Below are positions 18,823 through 22,588 of a stretch of 24,000 bases of DNA, one piece after another. This stretch comes from Filimonas zeae (GTDB lineage: Bacteria > Bacteroidota > Bacteroidia > Chitinophagales > Chitinophagaceae), in NCBI RefSeq assembly GCF_014641615.1, contig NZ_BMIB01000004.1:1048785-1072784 (forward strand), in the 5' to 3' direction. Under the pieces are notes generated by a model. The model saw only the letters and a list, made by a program, of their open reading frames with translations. It was not told where the DNA came from and did no database searches. The translations under genes were made by a program, and so were the position numbers. Within the stretch, counting starts at the first letter, position 1, and each line of letters begins with the position of its first letter.

Positions 18823-19025
18823 CACACCTCCTTTTTGTTATGAAAGAATACAGCCGGCATAATAGAGGTTAGCGGGCCTTTTTCAACCCGGTATTAGCAA
18901 ATACGATGCTTAAAACGAATCATCCCTTACTTATTAAGATTTCTTTAGCGGTTGCCCCGGATTGTTAAAAAAACATGCATAACAAAGCTGCGCCCCCTAA
19001 TGTTCGTTTTAACGGCTATAAAATA

Positions 19026-19056
19026 AGAGGGCACATCATTATATGATGCACCCTCT
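19026..19056. other. Imperfect hairpin AGAGGGCACATCAT-TAT-ATGATGCACCCTCT flanked by A/T-rich runs
   Basis: Read directly from the sequence. The 14-nt arms have two central mismatches. It lies in the 346-bp gap between the two-TM gene and the response regulator, and its function is unknown. Confidence 0.35.
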
Positions 19057-19133
19057 GTTTATAATAAACGCCCCGGGCACGCTGCCTGCATTAACTGGTG
19101 CTTAATTTTTTCCAATATGTCAAAGAACTTATG

Positions 19134-19163
19134 AAAACCGCCGCCTTACGGGGCAGCGGTTTT
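19134..19163 (-). terminator. Rho-independent terminator closing the 20409-19172 operon
   Basis: The minus-strand RNA reads AAAACCGCUGCC-CCGUAA-GGCGGCGGUUUU. This is a 9-bp GC-rich stem whose single irregular pair is a U-G wobble on the minus strand (a C-A mismatch on the plus strand). It is followed by a U-run and starts 9 nt after the stop codon. Confidence 0.8.
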
Positions 19164-19171
19164 ATTATTGG

Positions 19172-19399
19172 TTACCCTTTTACAGTAATCTGACTAATAG
19201 CCGCGGCCACACTGCCTGCCACCGCCAGGTAACCCGCAGCTGTTATTACACCTGCCGGCAACACCACCGGCGAGGCAATAATTACAGCACTGGCAGCGGT
19301 TAACGCCAGCCCCATATTGCGCAGCTTTTCAAAGAAGGGTGGGGTTTCCTGTTTTGCTCTTTGTTTAAGACTCAACTGATCTATTTGTTTCTGTGTCAT
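19172..19399 (-). CDS. Small two-TM membrane protein (75 aa), function unknown
   Basis: A polar N-terminus MTQKQIDQLSLKQRAKQETPPFFEKLRN is followed by two Ala/Gly-rich hydrophobic helices (GLALTAASAVIIASPVVL and VITAAGYLAVAGSVAAAISQI). It starts 6 bp after the upstream gene stop and is followed by the terminator. Confidence 0.65.
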   Translation of the reverse strand: MTQKQIDQLSLKQRAKQETPPFFEKLRNMGLALTAASAVIIASPVVLPAGVITAAGYLAVAGSVAAAISQITVKG

Positions 19400-19405
19400 G
19401 GTTTG

Positions 19406-19843
19406 TTAATTATAGTTTTTAAATAATGGGGTGATGCCTACAGGCAGTGACTCAATCTGCAGCCACACTTCCTGTTCCAGCTCAAAGGCAGGTTGCAGCA
19501 ACCGCATCAGCTTACTCATGGCCCTTCTGCTACTTTCGCCCTCACCCTTACCTGTTAAAGCGCTTACGGGCGCAATACAGCCTTTTAATTCGCGGGCAGC
19601 ATTGTTGGCAGGGTGTATCAGAATCAACTCGCGGCCAGGCACATCCTGTAACCACAGGTGATTACTGAACTTCGGGCTCTGCCTTTGCAGCAGCCGGTAG
19701 CGACCTTCGGGCACGCACGATGCGTTGGTGCGGTTATCCAGCCAGGGCAGTTCAATGGTATAGCAAACAATATCGCCATGCATTCTGAGTATACCATTGG
19801 TGCCGCGCGGATAATACATACGCTGTAGTTGTAGTGTTATCAT
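19406..19843 (-). CDS. DUF5675-like protein (145 aa); possible Cys/His peptidoglycan-acting enzyme
   Basis: The sequence YYPRGTNGILRMHGDIVCYTIELPWLDNRTNASCVPEGRYRLLQR...VPGRELILIHPANNAARELKGCIAPV matches my memory of the DUF5675 family found in Bacteroidota and phages. That match is unverified. Its ATG overlaps the upstream stop (ATGA at 19840-19843). Confidence 0.7.
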   Translation of the reverse strand: MITLQLQRMYYPRGTNGILRMHGDIVCYTIELPWLDNRTNASCVPEGRYRLLQRQSPKFSNHLWLQDVPGRELILIHPANNAARELKGCIAPVSALTGKGEGESSRRAMSKLMRLLQPAFELEQEVWLQIESLPVGITPLFKNYN

Positions 19844-20409
19844 AACTGCACCAGTCTTTCCAGATTGGCTTCGTTACCGGGTCGGTCTTTAGCCAGCGCC
19901 CTTACTATGCAGCCATCCGGATTGTTATTTACTACTGTTGCCGTATACACCCAATCGCGCCCATTCTCCTGCATTACCGCCATGCCTTTTTCAATCAGCA
20001 CATCCTGCTCCGTAAAAATGGACACCTCTACGGATACCACCTTATAGCGATCTACCGTATCTACCGTTACTGTACTGCCTACCAGGCCCGTGTATTGCGT
20101 TACCACCACATCAAAAATCTGTGGCGCCTTCCACACATCGGCCATGGCCAGGTTAAACGCACTCTGGCCGGGTTTGGTCATTTCCTCATACATGGCTTTT
20201 GCGGCAGGTATGCTGAGGATGGACTTTGCGTATTGAACGGCTTCTCTGAAGCGTTCGCGAACGGATATCTGAAGTGGGGTAGGTGGCACGGATGATTTAT
20301 CCGGCTTGCGGGAAACGATGGTTTTACCCGCCCTTTTGGTGAACACTAACAGATCGCCCACCAGACCACTTAAACCGAAGGTGACTATATTATTTTTTGA
20401 CTCTGCCAT
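19840..20409 (-). CDS. Hypothetical protein (189 aa), first gene of the operon
   Basis: ATG start with an A-rich SD-less leader typical of Bacteroidota. The N-terminus is FGLSGLVGDLLVFTKRAGKTIVSRKPDKSSVPPTPLQISVRERFREA, and the C-terminal half looks beta-rich. No function is recognisable. Confidence 0.65.
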   Translation of the reverse strand: MAESKNNIVTFGLSGLVGDLLVFTKRAGKTIVSRKPDKSSVPPTPLQISVRERFREAVQYAKSILSIPAAKAMYEEMTKPGQSAFNLAMADVWKAPQIFDVVVTQYTGLVGSTVTVDTVDRYKVVSVEVSIFTEQDVLIEKGMAVMQENGRDWVYTATVVNNNPDGCIVRALAKDRPGNEANLERLVQL

Positions 20410-20579
20410 TGTAATTCTTTTTACACGTTATTCAATTTGTGTTTCCATTTGCCACCACCGCTATCCGGGTAAAGCCTTGTTGGGGACGCTTCTCCCAACT
20501 CAGCTTTCAGCGTCGGCCCCGGTTACCGGCGGTTGACATAGCAATGATACTATTGGGGAGAGGGTGTTTTGAACGCGAA

Positions 20580-20642
20580 GTAGGCAAACGACAGTTTGGA
20601 GTATGCAAACGACAGTTTCGTGTAGGCAAACGACATGAGACA
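20580..20642. repeat. Three tandem 21-bp direct repeats: candidate LytTR-regulator binding array
   Basis: The copies are GTAGGCAAACGACAGTTTGGA (20580-20600), GTATGCAAACGACAGTTTCGT (20601-20621) and GTAGGCAAACGACATGAGACA (20622-20642). The 14-nt core GTAKGCAAACGACA is present in all three. The array lies 171 bp upstream of the operon ATG and 223 bp downstream of the LytTR gene. Confidence 0.85.
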
Positions 20643-20648
20643 GGCCTC

Positions 20649-20701
20649 AAACCCTTATGCAGACTGCGTTCTATGTCAGTTACGGCCTGCAGCAAGGGTT
20701 T
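20649..20701. other. Long imperfect hairpin/palindrome (AAACCCTT-A-TGCAG-ACTG...CAGT...CTGCA-GC-AAGGGTTT)
   Basis: Three nested complementary blocks were read directly: 20649-56 with 20694-701, 20658-62 with 20687-91, and 20663-66 with 20677-80. Confidence 0.45.
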
Positions 20702-20705
20702 CAGA

Positions 20706-20727
20706 GCATACCTGCCGCATACCGCCA
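20706..20727. repeat. Tandem 11-bp repeat GCATACC(T)GCC x2
   Basis: GCATACC occurs at 20706-20712 and 20717-20723, read directly from the sequence. Confidence 0.6.
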
Positions 20728-20765
20728 CGCTGTCACCCCGGAAAAAATTCTATAGCAACTGCCCA

Positions 20766-20820
20766 GGCGAAGGGGAAGCGAACCCGTGGCGAACCCACAC
20801 CGAAGGAATGGTGAAGGCAA
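20766..20820. repeat. Five tandem degenerate 11-bp repeats with an invariant GAA core
   Basis: The units are GGCGAAGGGGA, AGCGAACCCGT, GGCGAACCCAC, ACCGAAGGAAT and GGTGAAGGCAA. GAA occupies the same register every 11 bp, starting at 20769, 20780, 20791, 20802 and 20813. Confidence 0.7.
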
Positions 20821-20864
20821 AACCGACCCGCAAAATGGCAGACATACATTAAATAAATATACGT

Positions 20865-21182
20865 TTACTCACCCAGGAAGGTGATGCGCTTATAAAATGC
20901 CTCGCGGTATGTTCTTCCGATAGGCACCTCGCGACTGCCGAGGTTTATAAGCTCCGCTGTAAAGAATACAATATGATCAAGAGAAACTACATAGGCAGTA
21001 TGCACGCGGCAAAACTGAACATACCCTACCGTCTGATGCAGTTGTGTAAGCGGTTTTCGAATGAGAATACTTTCGGTAGTAGTTATAACAGTGGAGTATA
21101 TTTTCCCTCCCTCTATTAGCATAATATTACTTTGTTCAACGCATACATAGCGTGGGTACTGCGGTAGGTAGAGGCGCGGCAT
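20865..21182 (-). CDS. Stand-alone LytTR-family DNA-binding protein (105 aa, no receiver domain)
   Basis: VCVEQSNIMLIEGGKIYSTVITTTESILIRKPLTQLHQTVGYVQFCRVHTAYVVSLDHIVFF...LGSREVPIGRTYREAFYKRI follows the LytTR domain pattern (I..IE...., r.sL..le..L....F.RvHrsyiVnl..I, vPvsR.y). The protein is essentially the domain alone. Confidence 0.8.
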   Translation of the reverse strand: MPRLYLPQYPRYVCVEQSNIMLIEGGKIYSTVITTTESILIRKPLTQLHQTVGYVQFCRVHTAYVVSLDHIVFFTAELINLGSREVPIGRTYREAFYKRITFLGE

Positions 21183-21227
21183 GATTCCAGGTTTTAGATT
21201 TATATAATGAATAACTAAGCAGACGGA

Positions 21228-22217
21228 TCAGGCAAACAGCTTGCGCCGTCTCAATGCAGATGGCGCACAGCCAAAACGGCGTTTATAATACCTGAGCAGG
21301 CAGGTTTCACTCATCCCTATTTCACAGGCACAGCATTTAACCGAAGCACCTTTACGCCTCAGATAGTCACAGGCTTTCAACAACTGCTGCTCTATTATAT
21401 ACTGCTTTACTGTTTGGTTAGTAATACTAAAAAAAGCAGTATATATAGTAAAATCGCTTACACCAAAATGTTCAGCCAGCACGCCAGTAGTAAGGTGTTT
21501 ATGAAAGTGCTTATGAATATAAGTCTGTATTTCTGTAGCCAGTGGCACCATGCCGTTATTCATTTTCCTGCTGCGCATTAACTGCCGCAAGCGTAGTACA
21601 TATCCATTTAACAGGCTATCTGCCAGGGAAAGTGCCCGTACACAACTACCGGGGTTATGGTAATCAATAGCAATTAACCGACTCAGCAATGCATCTCTCC
21701 CCGGCAAGCCCGAAACTGTAAGCTGCATTACAGAACGCCTTTCGCCGGACGACACACAGGCACTGAAATGAGCCAATTGAGCGTTTACCGTAGCCAGGTG
21801 TTGCACCTGCTGCTGCGTTAAAGTAATACAGGCAAACTGATACATGCCAGGGGCTAATCGCATGTAGTGTTCCGTTGTGGCCGGGCTATGCGCCAGCAAA
21901 CACTCCCCCTCGTGAAATTTGTGCTGCCCTACCCCTTCTGTATATACCAGTGCATTACCCTTCATCACCAACCACAGTGCAGTAATAGCTTCCGGCACCG
22001 ACACTGTTAACAACTGATGCTCTTTTACATAAATCTGGTACAGATGAAAGGTAACAGCACCTATTGATGCAGACTGGATCATTACAGCGCCTTCTTTCCA
22101 TACAATACTACGGACTGCTGCACCTTTTAGCTGGTGCGTTGCATAGGCATACTGTTGTGGCAGCTGATTAACAATAGCAACATCTTCTTCGGGTTTACCG
22201 ATAGGCAGAAATGTCAT
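21228..22217 (-). CDS. AraC-family transcriptional regulator with an uncharacterised N-terminal (cupin-like?) sensor domain
   Basis: The C-terminal HTH reads IQTYIHKHFHKHLTTGVLAEHFGVSDFTIYTAFFSITNQTVKQYIIEQQLLKACDYLRRKGASVKCCACEIGMSETCLLRYYKRRFGCAPSALRR. The ORF-track start at 22256 is TTG; the ATG at 22217 (MTFLPIGKPEED...) is more likely. Confidence 0.8.
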   Translation of the reverse strand: MTFLPIGKPEEDVAIVNQLPQQYAYATHQLKGAAVRSIVWKEGAVMIQSASIGAVTFHLYQIYVKEHQLLTVSVPEAITALWLVMKGNALVYTEGVGQHKFHEGECLLAHSPATTEHYMRLAPGMYQFACITLTQQQVQHLATVNAQLAHFSACVSSGERRSVMQLTVSGLPGRDALLSRLIAIDYHNPGSCVRALSLADSLLNGYVLRLRQLMRSRKMNNGMVPLATEIQTYIHKHFHKHLTTGVLAEHFGVSDFTIYTAFFSITNQTVKQYIIEQQLLKACDYLRRKGASVKCCACEIGMSETCLLRYYKRRFGCAPSALRRRKLFA

Positions 22218-22588
22218 TGGGTACGTTTTTATGGTTGGGCAATTGTTCTGAAACAAATATCATTATATAACAATGATAGAAGTCAAATATTTGCCACCTA
22301 AAACGGAGAAACAACGGTTCTTATTGAAAAGAAACGTTAAAATATCCACAGGTATTTACCAACGGGTTGGCAGGCTTCTTATATAACAATATCATTTAAC
22401 TGAAAAAGCAACACATATGCAGAAGTGAAAATATTAATGTCTTAAAACAGGCAGTACTGCAAATATCGTTAGGGATGAGGCTGAAATGCCCTGCCAGTGC
22501 TGTTACAGCTTTTGCATACCTTTTATAGGGGGCGGAAATGCGTACTTCACATCAACTGTTGATTCAGAAATATTTTTTCTGAGCCGTG

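What the first reader, a model, noticed from the sequence alone, without database searches (positions are those of the whole stretch)
20580..20642. Three 21-bp direct repeats with the spacing LytTR regulators use, directly between the LytTR gene and the operon
Seen: GTAKGCAAACGACA recurs three times at exactly 21-bp intervals. Read on the operon sense strand it is TGTCGTTTGCMTAC. A near-consensus -7 box lies about 31 bp promoter-proximal: TATCATTG on the minus strand (plus 20542-20549), one mismatch from TAnnTTTG. That would centre the repeats at very roughly -50, -71 and -92.

Established: LytTR-domain regulators (AgrA, ComE, PlnC/PlnD and related) bind pairs or triplets of about 9-bp direct repeats separated by about 12 bp, which is 21 bp centre to centre.

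Inference: this array is the operator of the adjacent 105-aa LytTR protein and makes the downstream operon its regulon.
Basis: partly seen in the sequence, partly recalled or inferred. Interest (0 to 1): 0.65.

Follow-up and report, generated by a model that had tools for sequence, protein, structure and literature searches.

The report
Three-repeat LytTR-type operator, multi-copy promoter module
The three 21-bp-spaced repeats are a real, strongly conserved activator-binding site in front of a promoter, most likely used by the small LytTR protein encoded next door; the same site, promoter and a new ~100-nt folded RNA recur at four other places in this soil Bacteroidota genome.

Summary
GTAKGCAAACGACA occurs three times at an exact 21-bp spacing (20580, 20601, 20622).

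The array is not unique and not REP-like. The same triplet sits in five copies of one ~400-bp module in this genome. In sense order (window minus strand) the module runs: 5x11-bp array, palindromic hairpin, 3x21-bp repeats, 30 nt, -7 box TATCATTG, then a ~100-nt rod-like structured RNA. Only the window copy carries genes (189-aa protein, DUF5675 peptidase, 75-aa membrane protein).

Three related contigs keep the array. In the closest, all 56 bp are identical while third codon positions are 56-81% identical. In the most distant, only TGTCGTTT plus a changed 12-13-bp spacer survives, which is the LytTR rule of a 9-bp repeat and a 12-bp spacer.

A congener has a 28%-identical LytTR-only gene before the same operon. 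It has no AraC gene, and three different, degenerate repeats stand in the same register. The genome's other short LytTR gene is also followed by three 21-bp repeats, 30 nt and a -7 box, and this is conserved in a sister species.

Verdict: the array is a functional operator (about 0.9). The adjacent LytTR is the probable binder (about 0.6) but is unproven. Its regulon is five promoters, not one operon. Earlier notes of this scan reported a 21-bp array rule in other Chitinophagaceae.

The parts
21228..22256 (-). AraC/XylS-type regulator gene (342 aa; C-terminal HTH_18, unassigned N-terminal domain). It lies 45 bp upstream of the LytTR gene.
   Evidence: Pfam HTH_18, E 1.3e-12. Orthologues are present in L031, L054 and L055 at 66/54/45% identity and absent from the G002 locus.
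20865..21182 (-). Receiver-less LytTR DNA-binding protein (105 aa). Candidate activator.
   Evidence: Pfam LytTR positions 3-97 of 98. Of 32 LytTR genes in the genome, 30 have open frames of 232-290 aa; this one (120-aa open frame) and one other (173 aa) are the only short ones. Orthologues are 84/70/53% identical, and a 28%-identical LytTR-only gene holds the same position in G002.
20766..20820 (-). 'Box A': five 11-bp phased units with core sTTCGC, at the upstream edge of the module.
   Evidence: Conserved in the paralogous modules and in solo copies. In G002 the same position holds a 5x11-bp array of different sequence, CTTTAAAGCTT.
20645..20705 (-). 'Hairpin B': palindrome CTGAAACCCTT...AAGGGTTTGAG with a 35-37-nt loop.
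   Evidence: Arms are conserved, with compensatory and G-U changes among paralogues. A short-loop version occurs upstream of other DUF5675 operons.
20622..20635 (-). Distal repeat TGTCGTTTGCCTAC (about -98 to -85).
20601..20614 (-). Middle repeat TGTCGTTTGCATAC (about -77 to -64).
20580..20593 (-). Proximal repeat TGTCGTTTGCCTAC (about -56 to -43).
20542..20573 (-). Core promoter: -7 box TATCATTG (20549->20542) and a weak -35-like TTCAAA (20573->20568). There is no TTTG -33 element.
   Evidence: The -7 box is identical in 4 of the 5 paralogues (one base shorter in the C2 copy) and in all three orthologues, always 30 nt from the proximal repeat. The sigma-70-type scan lists TTCAAA-18-TATCAT.
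20445..20541 (-). Structured leader RNA of ~97 nt: a rod-like hairpin with conserved loops ACGCUGAAAGC, GAGARGCGUC and GCUUUACC.
   Evidence: MFE -46.3 kcal/mol, z -4.55. Seven copies in the genome, E 1e-15 to 1e-21. All fold alike. Cells paired 84.5% against 31-50% in slid controls, and 9 pairs change on both sides. No Rfam match.
19840..20409 (-). First operon gene, 189 aa, no known family.
   Evidence: No Pfam or PHROG hit. 28 homologues found, all in Bacteroidota where named.
19406..19843 (-). DUF5675 protein (145 aa), a C82-like cell-wall peptidase fold according to a 2026 preprint.
   Evidence: Pfam PF18925, E 9e-30; phrog_1501; bioRxiv 10.64898/2026.04.11.717860. Ten paralogues in the genome.
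19172..19399 (-). 75-aa small protein with a hydrophobic C-terminal half.
   Evidence: The ORF is paired with DUF5675 in all 10 loci.
19112..19163 (-). GC-rich hairpin followed by a U-run, read by eye as a terminator (19163->19133), then the 'end box' GTTCTTTGACATATTGG (19128->19112).
   Evidence: Sequence; the terminator scan did not list this hairpin. The end box follows every copy of the module RNA.

Best explanation
The three repeats are the activator operator of a Bacteroidota-type promoter.

Shown: each unit is a ~9-bp recognition core, TGTCGTTTR, followed by a 12-bp spacer. The three cores lie on one face of the helix at about -50, -71 and -92. The proximal one ends 30 nt upstream of the -7 box TATCATTG, and the promoter has no -33 TTTG element.

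Inferred: the receiver-less 105-aa LytTR protein encoded directly upstream binds the three cores cooperatively and recruits RNA polymerase.

Shown as sequence, not as transcript: what follows the promoter is first a ~100-nt rod-like structured RNA, then, at this locus only, the genes for the 189-aa protein, the DUF5675 peptidase and the 75-aa protein.

Shown: the same operator-promoter-RNA module stands at four other loci without protein-coding cargo. The regulator would therefore control five promoters in trans.

Inferred: because the LytTR protein has no receiver domain, its activity is probably set by its own expression, perhaps through the co-transcribed AraC-type sensor, or by an unknown partner.
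For: 1. Purifying selection. Against the orthologue L031, the array is 56/56 identical and the -7 box 8/8. The leader is 92-97% identical. Third codon positions of the flanking genes are 56-81% identical and the rest of the gap is 61-80%.

2. Core and spacer. In L055 (LytTR 53% identical) only TGTCGTTT(A) of each unit is kept, and the 3' half and spacer have changed. This equals the documented LytTR rule of 9-bp direct repeats, 12-bp spacers, sited 4-11 bp upstream of the -35 (PMC6193735). Here the proximal repeat ends 6 bp before a -35-like TTCAAA.

3. Strict phasing. TGTCGWTT pairs occur only at period 21 (10 against 0 at other periods).

4. Linkage. A LytTR-only gene precedes this operon in G000, L031, L054, L055 and G002. 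In G002 the LytTR is 28% identical and AraC is absent. There, three different, degenerate 21-bp repeats sit in the same register, with 6 of 14 columns invariant and 0 of 2000 shuffles reaching that.

5. Independent replicate. The genome's only other short LytTR gene (162 aa, C4:70753-71241) is followed directly by TACGTTGCCTA / TACGTATTCTA / TACGTTGCCTA at period 21. Then come 30 nt, the -7 box TAGCTTTG and a Por_Secre_tail gene. The same layout is kept in the sister species G001.

6. Enrichment. Arrays with a period that is a multiple of 21 are enriched near LytTR genes: 7 within 2 kb against 1.9 expected, P 0.0035, and 6 of the 7 lie on the 3' side.

7. Not coding. No frame is open across the repeats in all five paralogues.
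Against: Four of the five operator copies, and both copies of the variant operator TGTCGATTACCCC, are not next to any LytTR gene. At least four of the five modules begin just after a co-directional gene, so the adjacency here could be incidental.

Documented LytTR operators are pairs, not triplets.

An AraC-type gene is adjacent in four of the five related loci.

Six short LytTR genes in other genera have no 21-bp repeats nearby.

Arrays of 21 bp are pervasive in this genome (117 of 278 tandem arrays), and most are far from LytTR genes.

A Flavipsychrobacter MAG has a 14-unit array with the same core but no short LytTR gene.
Confidence: 0.6

Rival explanations
1. The operator is real, but it is bound by an unlinked regulator. 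This could be one of the 30 receiver-containing LytTR response regulators of the genome, or a member of another family that reads 21-bp direct repeats. On this reading the adjacent LytTR gene is a bystander.
For: Four of the five operator copies and both variant-operator copies have no regulator gene beside them. At least four modules sit right after some co-directional gene. The genome has 32 LytTR genes and many 21-bp arrays.
Against: The LytTR-only gene keeps its place before the operon in five genomes or contigs, down to 44% cargo identity. The operator changes where the LytTR has diverged to 28%. The second short LytTR gene shows the same arrangement.
Confidence: 0.2
2. The 342-aa AraC/XylS-type protein encoded just upstream binds the repeats. 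Family members such as AraC (I1-I2 sites) and XylS read direct repeats 21 bp apart (from memory).
For: The gene is adjacent and probably co-transcribed with the LytTR gene, and this is conserved in L031, L054 and L055. A 23%-identical full-length paralogue lies beside another DUF5675 operon at C1:506459.
Against: It is absent from the G002 locus, which keeps the LytTR gene, the three-repeat register, the leader and the operon. The conserved core is one contiguous ~9-bp block, not two blocks a helical turn apart. Residues in the putative recognition helices differ among orthologues (Y/D, E/D/Y, L/N) while the cores are invariant. The helix positions were assigned from memory of MarA.
Confidence: 0.1
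3. The repeats are not a transcription operator. They are protein-binding sites of a mobile or recombining cassette, for example transposase or recombinase arm sites. Alternatively they are one small instance of the unexplained 21-bp minisatellites of Chitinophagaceae.
For: The module is multi-copy (5-7 copies plus decayed ones) and confined to this species group: 0 of 40 relatives by DNA search and 0 of 150 family genomes by RNA model. It has a defined 3' end box, and one copy (C7) is flanked by the end box on both sides. Of 278 tandem arrays, 117 have periods that are multiples of 21.
Against: Copies are only 73-76% identical, so they are old and not recently mobile. No transposase or recombinase gene is associated. 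The copy number is always exactly three, at a fixed 30-nt distance from a conserved -7 box. The long arrays have palindromic units, and these repeats do not.
Confidence: 0.07

Closest known systems
LytTR Regulatory Systems (HdrRM/BrsRM of Streptococcus mutans; Zou et al. 2018, PMC6193735)
   Same: The regulator is a LytTR protein without a receiver domain. It acts on direct repeats of ~9 bp with a 12-bp spacer, sited a few bp upstream of the -35-equivalent of the activated promoter.
   Different: There are three repeats, not two. The operator lies downstream of the regulator gene, and no copy lies upstream of it, so there is no evident positive autoregulation. No transmembrane inhibitor gene is paired with the regulator; an AraC-type gene precedes it instead. 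The phylum is Bacteroidota, with a -7/-33 type promoter.
AgrA / ComE / PlnC-type operators of LytTR response regulators
   Same: Direct repeats with a 21-bp centre-to-centre distance on one face of the helix, just upstream of the promoter, with activation of a short regulatory RNA plus an operon. This echoes AgrA P3 and RNAIII (from memory).
   Different: Those regulators carry a phospho-receiver domain that drives dimerisation, and they use pairs of sites. Here there is no receiver, there are three sites, and there are five identical promoters in the genome.
AraC/XylS-family direct-repeat operators (araI1-I2, XylS at Pm; from memory)
   Same: Direct repeats 21 bp apart next to the promoter, and a gene of that family is adjacent.
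   Different: Those half-sites are 15-17 bp with two conserved blocks, and the proximal site overlaps the -35. Here the conserved block is ~9 bp and ends 30 nt before the -7 box. The AraC gene is missing from the congener locus.
21-bp intergenic array rule in Chitinophagaceae, noted earlier in this scan (e1-4218830, e1-3960604; AI notes, not published)
   Same: An exact 21-bp register, unrelated unit sequences, intergenic position, and the same bacterial family. This genome shows the rule strongly.
   Different: Those arrays are long and variable in copy number, and in this genome their units are often palindromic. The array studied here always has three non-palindromic copies at a fixed distance from a promoter.

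Membership tests
LytTR-type direct-repeat operator | Repeats are direct, not inverted. | tested here: met
   Three head-to-tail copies on one strand.
LytTR-type direct-repeat operator | A conserved core of ~9 bp separated by 12 (11-13) bp, giving a 21-bp period. | tested here: met
   The four-genome alignment keeps (C)TGTCGTTT in every unit and lets the next 12-13 bp vary. The period is exactly 21. The rule is taken from PMC6193735.
LytTR-type direct-repeat operator | Site lies immediately upstream (4-11 bp) of the -35-equivalent of the regulated promoter. | tested here: inconclusive
   The proximal core ends 6 bp before a -35-like TTCAAA and 30 nt before the -7 box. The promoter and start site are predicted only, and the promoter-like hits are no more numerous than in shuffles.
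LytTR-type direct-repeat operator | A pair of repeats. | tested here: not met
   There are always three: 5 paralogues, 3 orthologues, the G002 locus and the second LytTR locus.
LytTR-type direct-repeat operator | Bound by a LytTR-domain protein. | not testable with these tools
   Needs EMSA, footprinting or ChIP.
LytTR Regulatory System (LRS) | The regulator is a LytTR protein lacking a receiver domain. | tested here: met
   105 aa, Pfam LytTR positions 3-97 of 98, no other domain.
LytTR Regulatory System (LRS) | Two-gene operon in which the regulator is followed by a transmembrane inhibitor gene. | tested here: not met
   The next gene lies 455 bp downstream, behind its own promoter, and encodes the 189-aa protein. 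The upstream partner is an AraC-type protein.
LytTR Regulatory System (LRS) | Autoregulatory direct repeats upstream of its own operon. | tested here: not met
   No TGTCGTTTR pair lies upstream of the araC-lytTR genes. The only exact copies in the window are the three studied.
Rfam RNA families (for the leader RNA) | Match to a curated covariance model. | tested here: not met
   No hit on the leader at E <= 1 in 19000-22500.
REP / MITE-like dispersed repeat | Many near-identical copies, terminal inverted repeats, no fixed relation to promoters. | tested here: not met
   Only 5 (+2 variant) copies, 73-76% identical, always with the same promoter and RNA.

The most novel reading that the evidence does not exclude
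The module is a lineage-specific regulatory cassette that duplicates as a unit. A receiver-less LytTR activator reads a three-unit, 21-bp-phased operator and switches on a family of undescribed ~100-nt rod-like RNAs. One of these RNAs is the leader of a lysin-like DUF5675 cassette, and four are free-standing and could act in trans or as decoys. By extension, the unexplained 21-bp minisatellites of Chitinophagaceae would be expanded arrays of LytTR-type binding sites.
Probability: 0.15. Interest if true: 0.75.

Novelty: new variant of a known kind. Interest (0 to 1): 0.55.

Why it matters
Receiver-less LytTR regulators have been characterised only in Streptococcus mutans, and nothing comparable is described for Bacteroidota.

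This locus offers a compact, testable case with one small protein and one 56-bp operator. It predicts five genomic targets and a clear read-out, an abundant ~100-nt RNA.

It also gives the first mechanistic handle on two loose ends:
- how the ten-member family of DUF5675 cell-wall peptidase cassettes in this genome is controlled;
- why tandem arrays in Chitinophagaceae keep an exact 21-bp register. LytTR genes are significantly close to such arrays here.

Tried and rejected
- Coding repeat (21 bp = 7 codons): rejected. No frame is open across the array in all five paralogues, and frame boundaries differ.
- Known RNA: no Rfam match to the leader or the gap.
- Search for the module in relatives. 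Blastn gave 0 of 40, the two-repeat pattern gave 1 weak match in 400 family genomes, and RNA model R1 gave 0 of 150 (only 27 candidates were scored per genome, and the divergent G002 leader was missed).
- Whole-collection pattern scan: only a Flavipsychrobacter MAG, holding a long array of another kind. That MAG has no short LytTR gene.
- General rule 'short LytTR gene followed by 21-bp repeats' in other genera: six genes in G005, G007 and G026 have none on either side.
- LytTR homologues by word search: only the protein itself and one orthologue. PDB phmmer gave no hit.
- Distant homologues of the 189-aa protein (P0012, P0016, P0018, P0023): not linked to LytTR or DUF5675.
- REP-like hairpin: the palindrome arms occur only about 10 times, all in this system.
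- Literature: no paper on 21-bp arrays in Bacteroidota turned up.

Full report
**Observation**

The + strand of the window reads GTAGGCAAACGACA (20580), GTATGCAAACGACA (20601) and GTAGGCAAACGACA (20622). Tandem Repeats Finder reports period 21, 2.7 copies, score 93. A pattern search finds the three exact copies, and none of 100 shuffles reaches the observed count. On the minus strand, the sense of all neighbouring genes, the unit is TGTCGTTTGCMTAC. TATCATTG lies at 20549->20542, 30 nt from the proximal repeat. The 105-aa ORF 20865-21182(-) is one complete LytTR domain and nothing more. The gene before it is an AraC-type regulator. The genes after the gap encode a 189-aa protein of no family, a DUF5675 protein and a 75-aa protein. 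A 2026 preprint places DUF5675 structurally with C82-like cell-wall peptidases.

**The array is one of five, inside a larger module**

The same triplet occurs at five loci in the genome: C2:1297268, C4:1069364 (the window), C4:1200496, C5:569745 and C7:36858.

Aligning the five shows that about 400 bp are homologous. In sense order the module contains:
- a block of five 11-bp units ('box A', window 20766-20820);
- a palindrome CTGAAACCCTT...AAGGGTTTGAG (20645-20705);
- the three repeats;
- a 30-nt spacer with a conserved CAAA;
- the -7 box;
- about 100 nt of conserved sequence;
- an 'end box' GTTCTTTGACATATTGG.

Only the window copy has genes between the conserved 100 nt and the end box, which here lies at 19128->19112, after the 75-aa gene and a GC-rich hairpin with a U-run that I read as a terminator. 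The terminator scan did not list that hairpin.

At C4:1200496 and C5:569745 the module runs straight into a hairpin terminator and a convergent gene. The module is therefore a self-contained transcription unit.

Two further modules carry a variant triplet, TGTCGATTACCCC, in the same register (C1:451175 and C2:1297432). A decayed copy lies beside the C7 module. Pairs of TGTCGWTT occur 10 times at period 21 and never at periods 17-20 or 22-25. No reading frame is open across the array in all five copies. So the motif is neither unique to this operon nor REP-like. It has the distribution of a small regulon.

**What the promoter makes**

The ~97 nt after the -7 box (20541->20445) fold into a long rod with MFE -46.3 kcal/mol and z -4.55. 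A covariance model finds seven copies in the genome (E 1e-15 to 1e-21). Each copy folds on its own into the same architecture, with different outer-stem sequences.

On ten sequences (seven paralogues, three orthologues), 84.5% of cells pair, against 31-50% when partners are slid. Nine pairs change on both sides, and 0-1 of 500 shuffles do as well. Rfam has no match.

Two RNA copies (C1:1018830 and C4:344605) have a -7 box but no TGTCG repeats. Operator and RNA are therefore separable parts.

**Selection on the array**

Three related contigs carry the same gene order. LytTR identity is 84% (L031), 70% (L054) and 53% (L055).

| Feature (G000 vs L031) | Identity |
|---|---|
| Repeat array | 56/56 |
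| -7 box | 8/8 |
| Leader RNA | 92-97% |
| Rest of the intergenic gap | 61-80% |
| Third codon positions of flanking genes | 56-81% |

In the four-way alignment the most distant contig keeps only TGTCGTTT(A) in each unit. The 3' half of the 14-mer and the spacer have changed, while the -7 box and most of the leader are invariant. The functional unit is therefore a core of about 9 bp plus a 12-bp spacer.

This is the rule documented for LytTR regulators, including receiver-less ones: two 9-bp direct repeats, 12 bp apart, 4-11 bp upstream of the -35 (PMC6193735). Here the proximal core ends 6 bp before a -35-like TTCAAA. The promoter has no TTTG -33 element, which fits dependence on an activator.

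**Who binds**

This cannot be settled by computation, but four lines favour the adjacent LytTR protein.

1. A congener (G002, locus L050) has a 107-aa LytTR-only gene, only 28% identical. It is followed by a 392-bp gap, then a 186-aa homologue of the first operon gene (44% identical) and DUF5675. There is no AraC gene. In the same register (30 nt upstream of its -7 box TACTATTG) stand three degenerate 21-bp repeats of a different sequence. Six of 14 columns are invariant; 0 of 2000 shuffles reach that at this register, and 7 of 300 at any register. Regulator and operator have changed together while the architecture stayed.

2. The genome's only other short LytTR gene (162 aa, with a stub of a receiver) is followed directly by three repeats, TACGTTGCCTA / TACGTATTCTA / TACGTTGCCTA, at period 21. 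Then come 30 nt, a perfect -7 box TAGCTTTG and a gene with a Por_Secre_tail domain. The sister species G001 keeps the same layout with a 73%-identical regulator. Geometry and part of the core, CGTT(T)GCCTA, match the window.

3. Of 32 LytTR genes, seven have an array with a period that is a multiple of 21 within 2 kb, against 1.9 expected (P 0.0035). Six of the seven arrays lie on the 3' side of the gene.

4. The AraC protein is less conserved (66/54/45%) and varies at positions that I place, from memory of MarA, in its recognition helices, while the cores are invariant.

Four points weigh against the adjacent LytTR. Four of the five operator copies have no regulator beside them, and at least four modules simply follow some co-directional gene. 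Documented LytTR operators are pairs. Six short LytTR genes in other genera have no such repeats. No operator copy precedes the araC-lytTR genes, so there is no LRS-type autoregulation.

My estimates: about 0.9 that the array is a functional operator of this promoter, and about 0.6 that the adjacent LytTR protein is its binder. The rivals are an unlinked regulator (0.2), the AraC-type protein (0.1) and a non-transcriptional role (0.07).

**Context seen on the way**

DUF5675 plus the small membrane protein occur ten times in the genome. The nine other loci have, between an unassigned ~240-420-aa gene (one is DUF4272) and a ~206-aa first gene, gaps of 420-1300 bp. Most of these gaps hold long tandem arrays with periods of 21, 42 or 63 bp; one (C3:1399521) has a longer unit whose period I did not measure, and I saw no such array in three gaps. 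Several also hold a short version of the same palindrome, and seven of the nine share a second type of closed-stem leader.

Genome-wide, 117 of 278 tandem arrays have a period that is a multiple of 21. Three-copy matches occur 28 times at period 21 and 39 times at period 42, against 0-2 at every other period from 13 to 45. Earlier notes of this scan describe the same 21-bp rule in other Chitinophagaceae.

**Comparison with known systems**

The array works like a LytTR operator and meets the core, spacer and direct-repeat criteria. It fails 'pair of repeats'.

The locus is not a canonical LytTR Regulatory System. It has no paired membrane inhibitor and no autoregulatory site, it sits in a different phylum, and it has an AraC-type partner.

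I file it as a new variant of a known kind. The multi-copy promoter-RNA module and the RNA itself appear to be undescribed.

**Limits**

All promoter and start-site assignments are predictions. The relatives that carry the locus are few and closely related. The mapping of contact residues rests on memory.

Noticed in passing
whole genome G000 (for example C1:342947-343406, C2:1404905-1405194, C5:215663-216080, C6:477-836): 117 of 278 tandem arrays have a period that is a multiple of 21 bp (21, 42, 63, 84, 105 or 126). Their unit sequences are unrelated and often palindromic. A three-copy scan gives 28 hits at period 21 and 39 at period 42, against 0-2 at every other period from 13 to 45.
   Followed up: partly
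G000 C1:161619, C1:504945, C2:147050, C2:764345, C2:1405961, C3:407204, C3:584479, C3:1167314, C3:1399521 (plus a leader-only hit at C3:868472): Nine further DUF5675 cassettes: a ~206-aa (or 252-aa) protein, DUF5675, an ~80-aa protein and, in most, a ~61-aa membrane protein. Each lies behind a 420-1300-bp gap. Most gaps hold long 21/42/63-bp arrays, and seven of the nine share a second conserved closed-stem leader (GTCAACAGCGG...GAACGGCCGTTCGCC...ACCGGTTACTGCGCAG).
   Followed up: partly
window 20766-20820: Five 11-bp phased units (core sTTCGC on the minus strand) form the upstream edge of the module. Solo copies exist at C1:451026, C1:1018508 and C4:345078. The G002 orthologous gap has a 5x11-bp array of a different sequence (CTTTAAAGCTT) at the same position.
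   Followed up: partly
window 20645-20705: A palindrome with conserved 11-bp arms, CTGAAACCCTT / AAGGGTTTCAG, and a 35-37-nt loop. Changes among paralogues are compensatory or G-U on the minus strand. A short-loop version lies upstream of other DUF5675 operons. It has no U-tract, so it is not a classical terminator.
   Followed up: partly
window 19112-19128 (minus strand); also C19:372-384: The 'end box' GTTCTTTGACATATTGG follows every copy of the module RNA, here only after the three-gene cargo. It also occurs in the rRNA operon between tRNA-Ala and the 23S gene. Its function is unknown.
   Followed up: no
G000 C4:70102-71241; L046 (G001) about 1950-2090 in minus-strand (reverse-complement) numbering: A second receiver-less LytTR gene (162 aa) is followed directly by three 21-bp repeats (TACGTWKYCTA), 30 nt, the -7 box TAGCTTTG and a 182-aa T9SS-sorted protein. 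The layout is conserved in a sister species.
   Followed up: yes
G000 C1:451175-451229 and C2:1297399-1297453: A variant operator, TGTCGATTACCCC x3, in the same module type and register. At C2 it stands in tandem upstream of the TGTCGTTTGCMTAC triplet. This suggests a second specificity sharing the TGTCGWTT half.
   Followed up: partly
L032:2640-2950 (Flavipsychrobacter sp. MAG, DATJDP010000081.1): About 14 tandem 21-bp units that mix the cores ATGTCGTTTGCCT and ATGTCGTTAGACA, between two convergent genes. The core is the same as the window operator, but there is no promoter context and no short LytTR gene in that MAG.
   Followed up: partly
G000 C1:1018830-1018928 and C4:344605-344701: Two copies of the structured RNA have their own -7-like boxes (TAAATTTA, TATCTTTA) but no TGTCG repeats. 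At C1 the box A element is inverted relative to the RNA.
   Followed up: no
G000 C1:506459-507406: The only full-length paralogue of the window's AraC-type protein (23% identity) lies just downstream of another DUF5675 cassette of the same subtype, with a 252-aa first gene.
   Followed up: no
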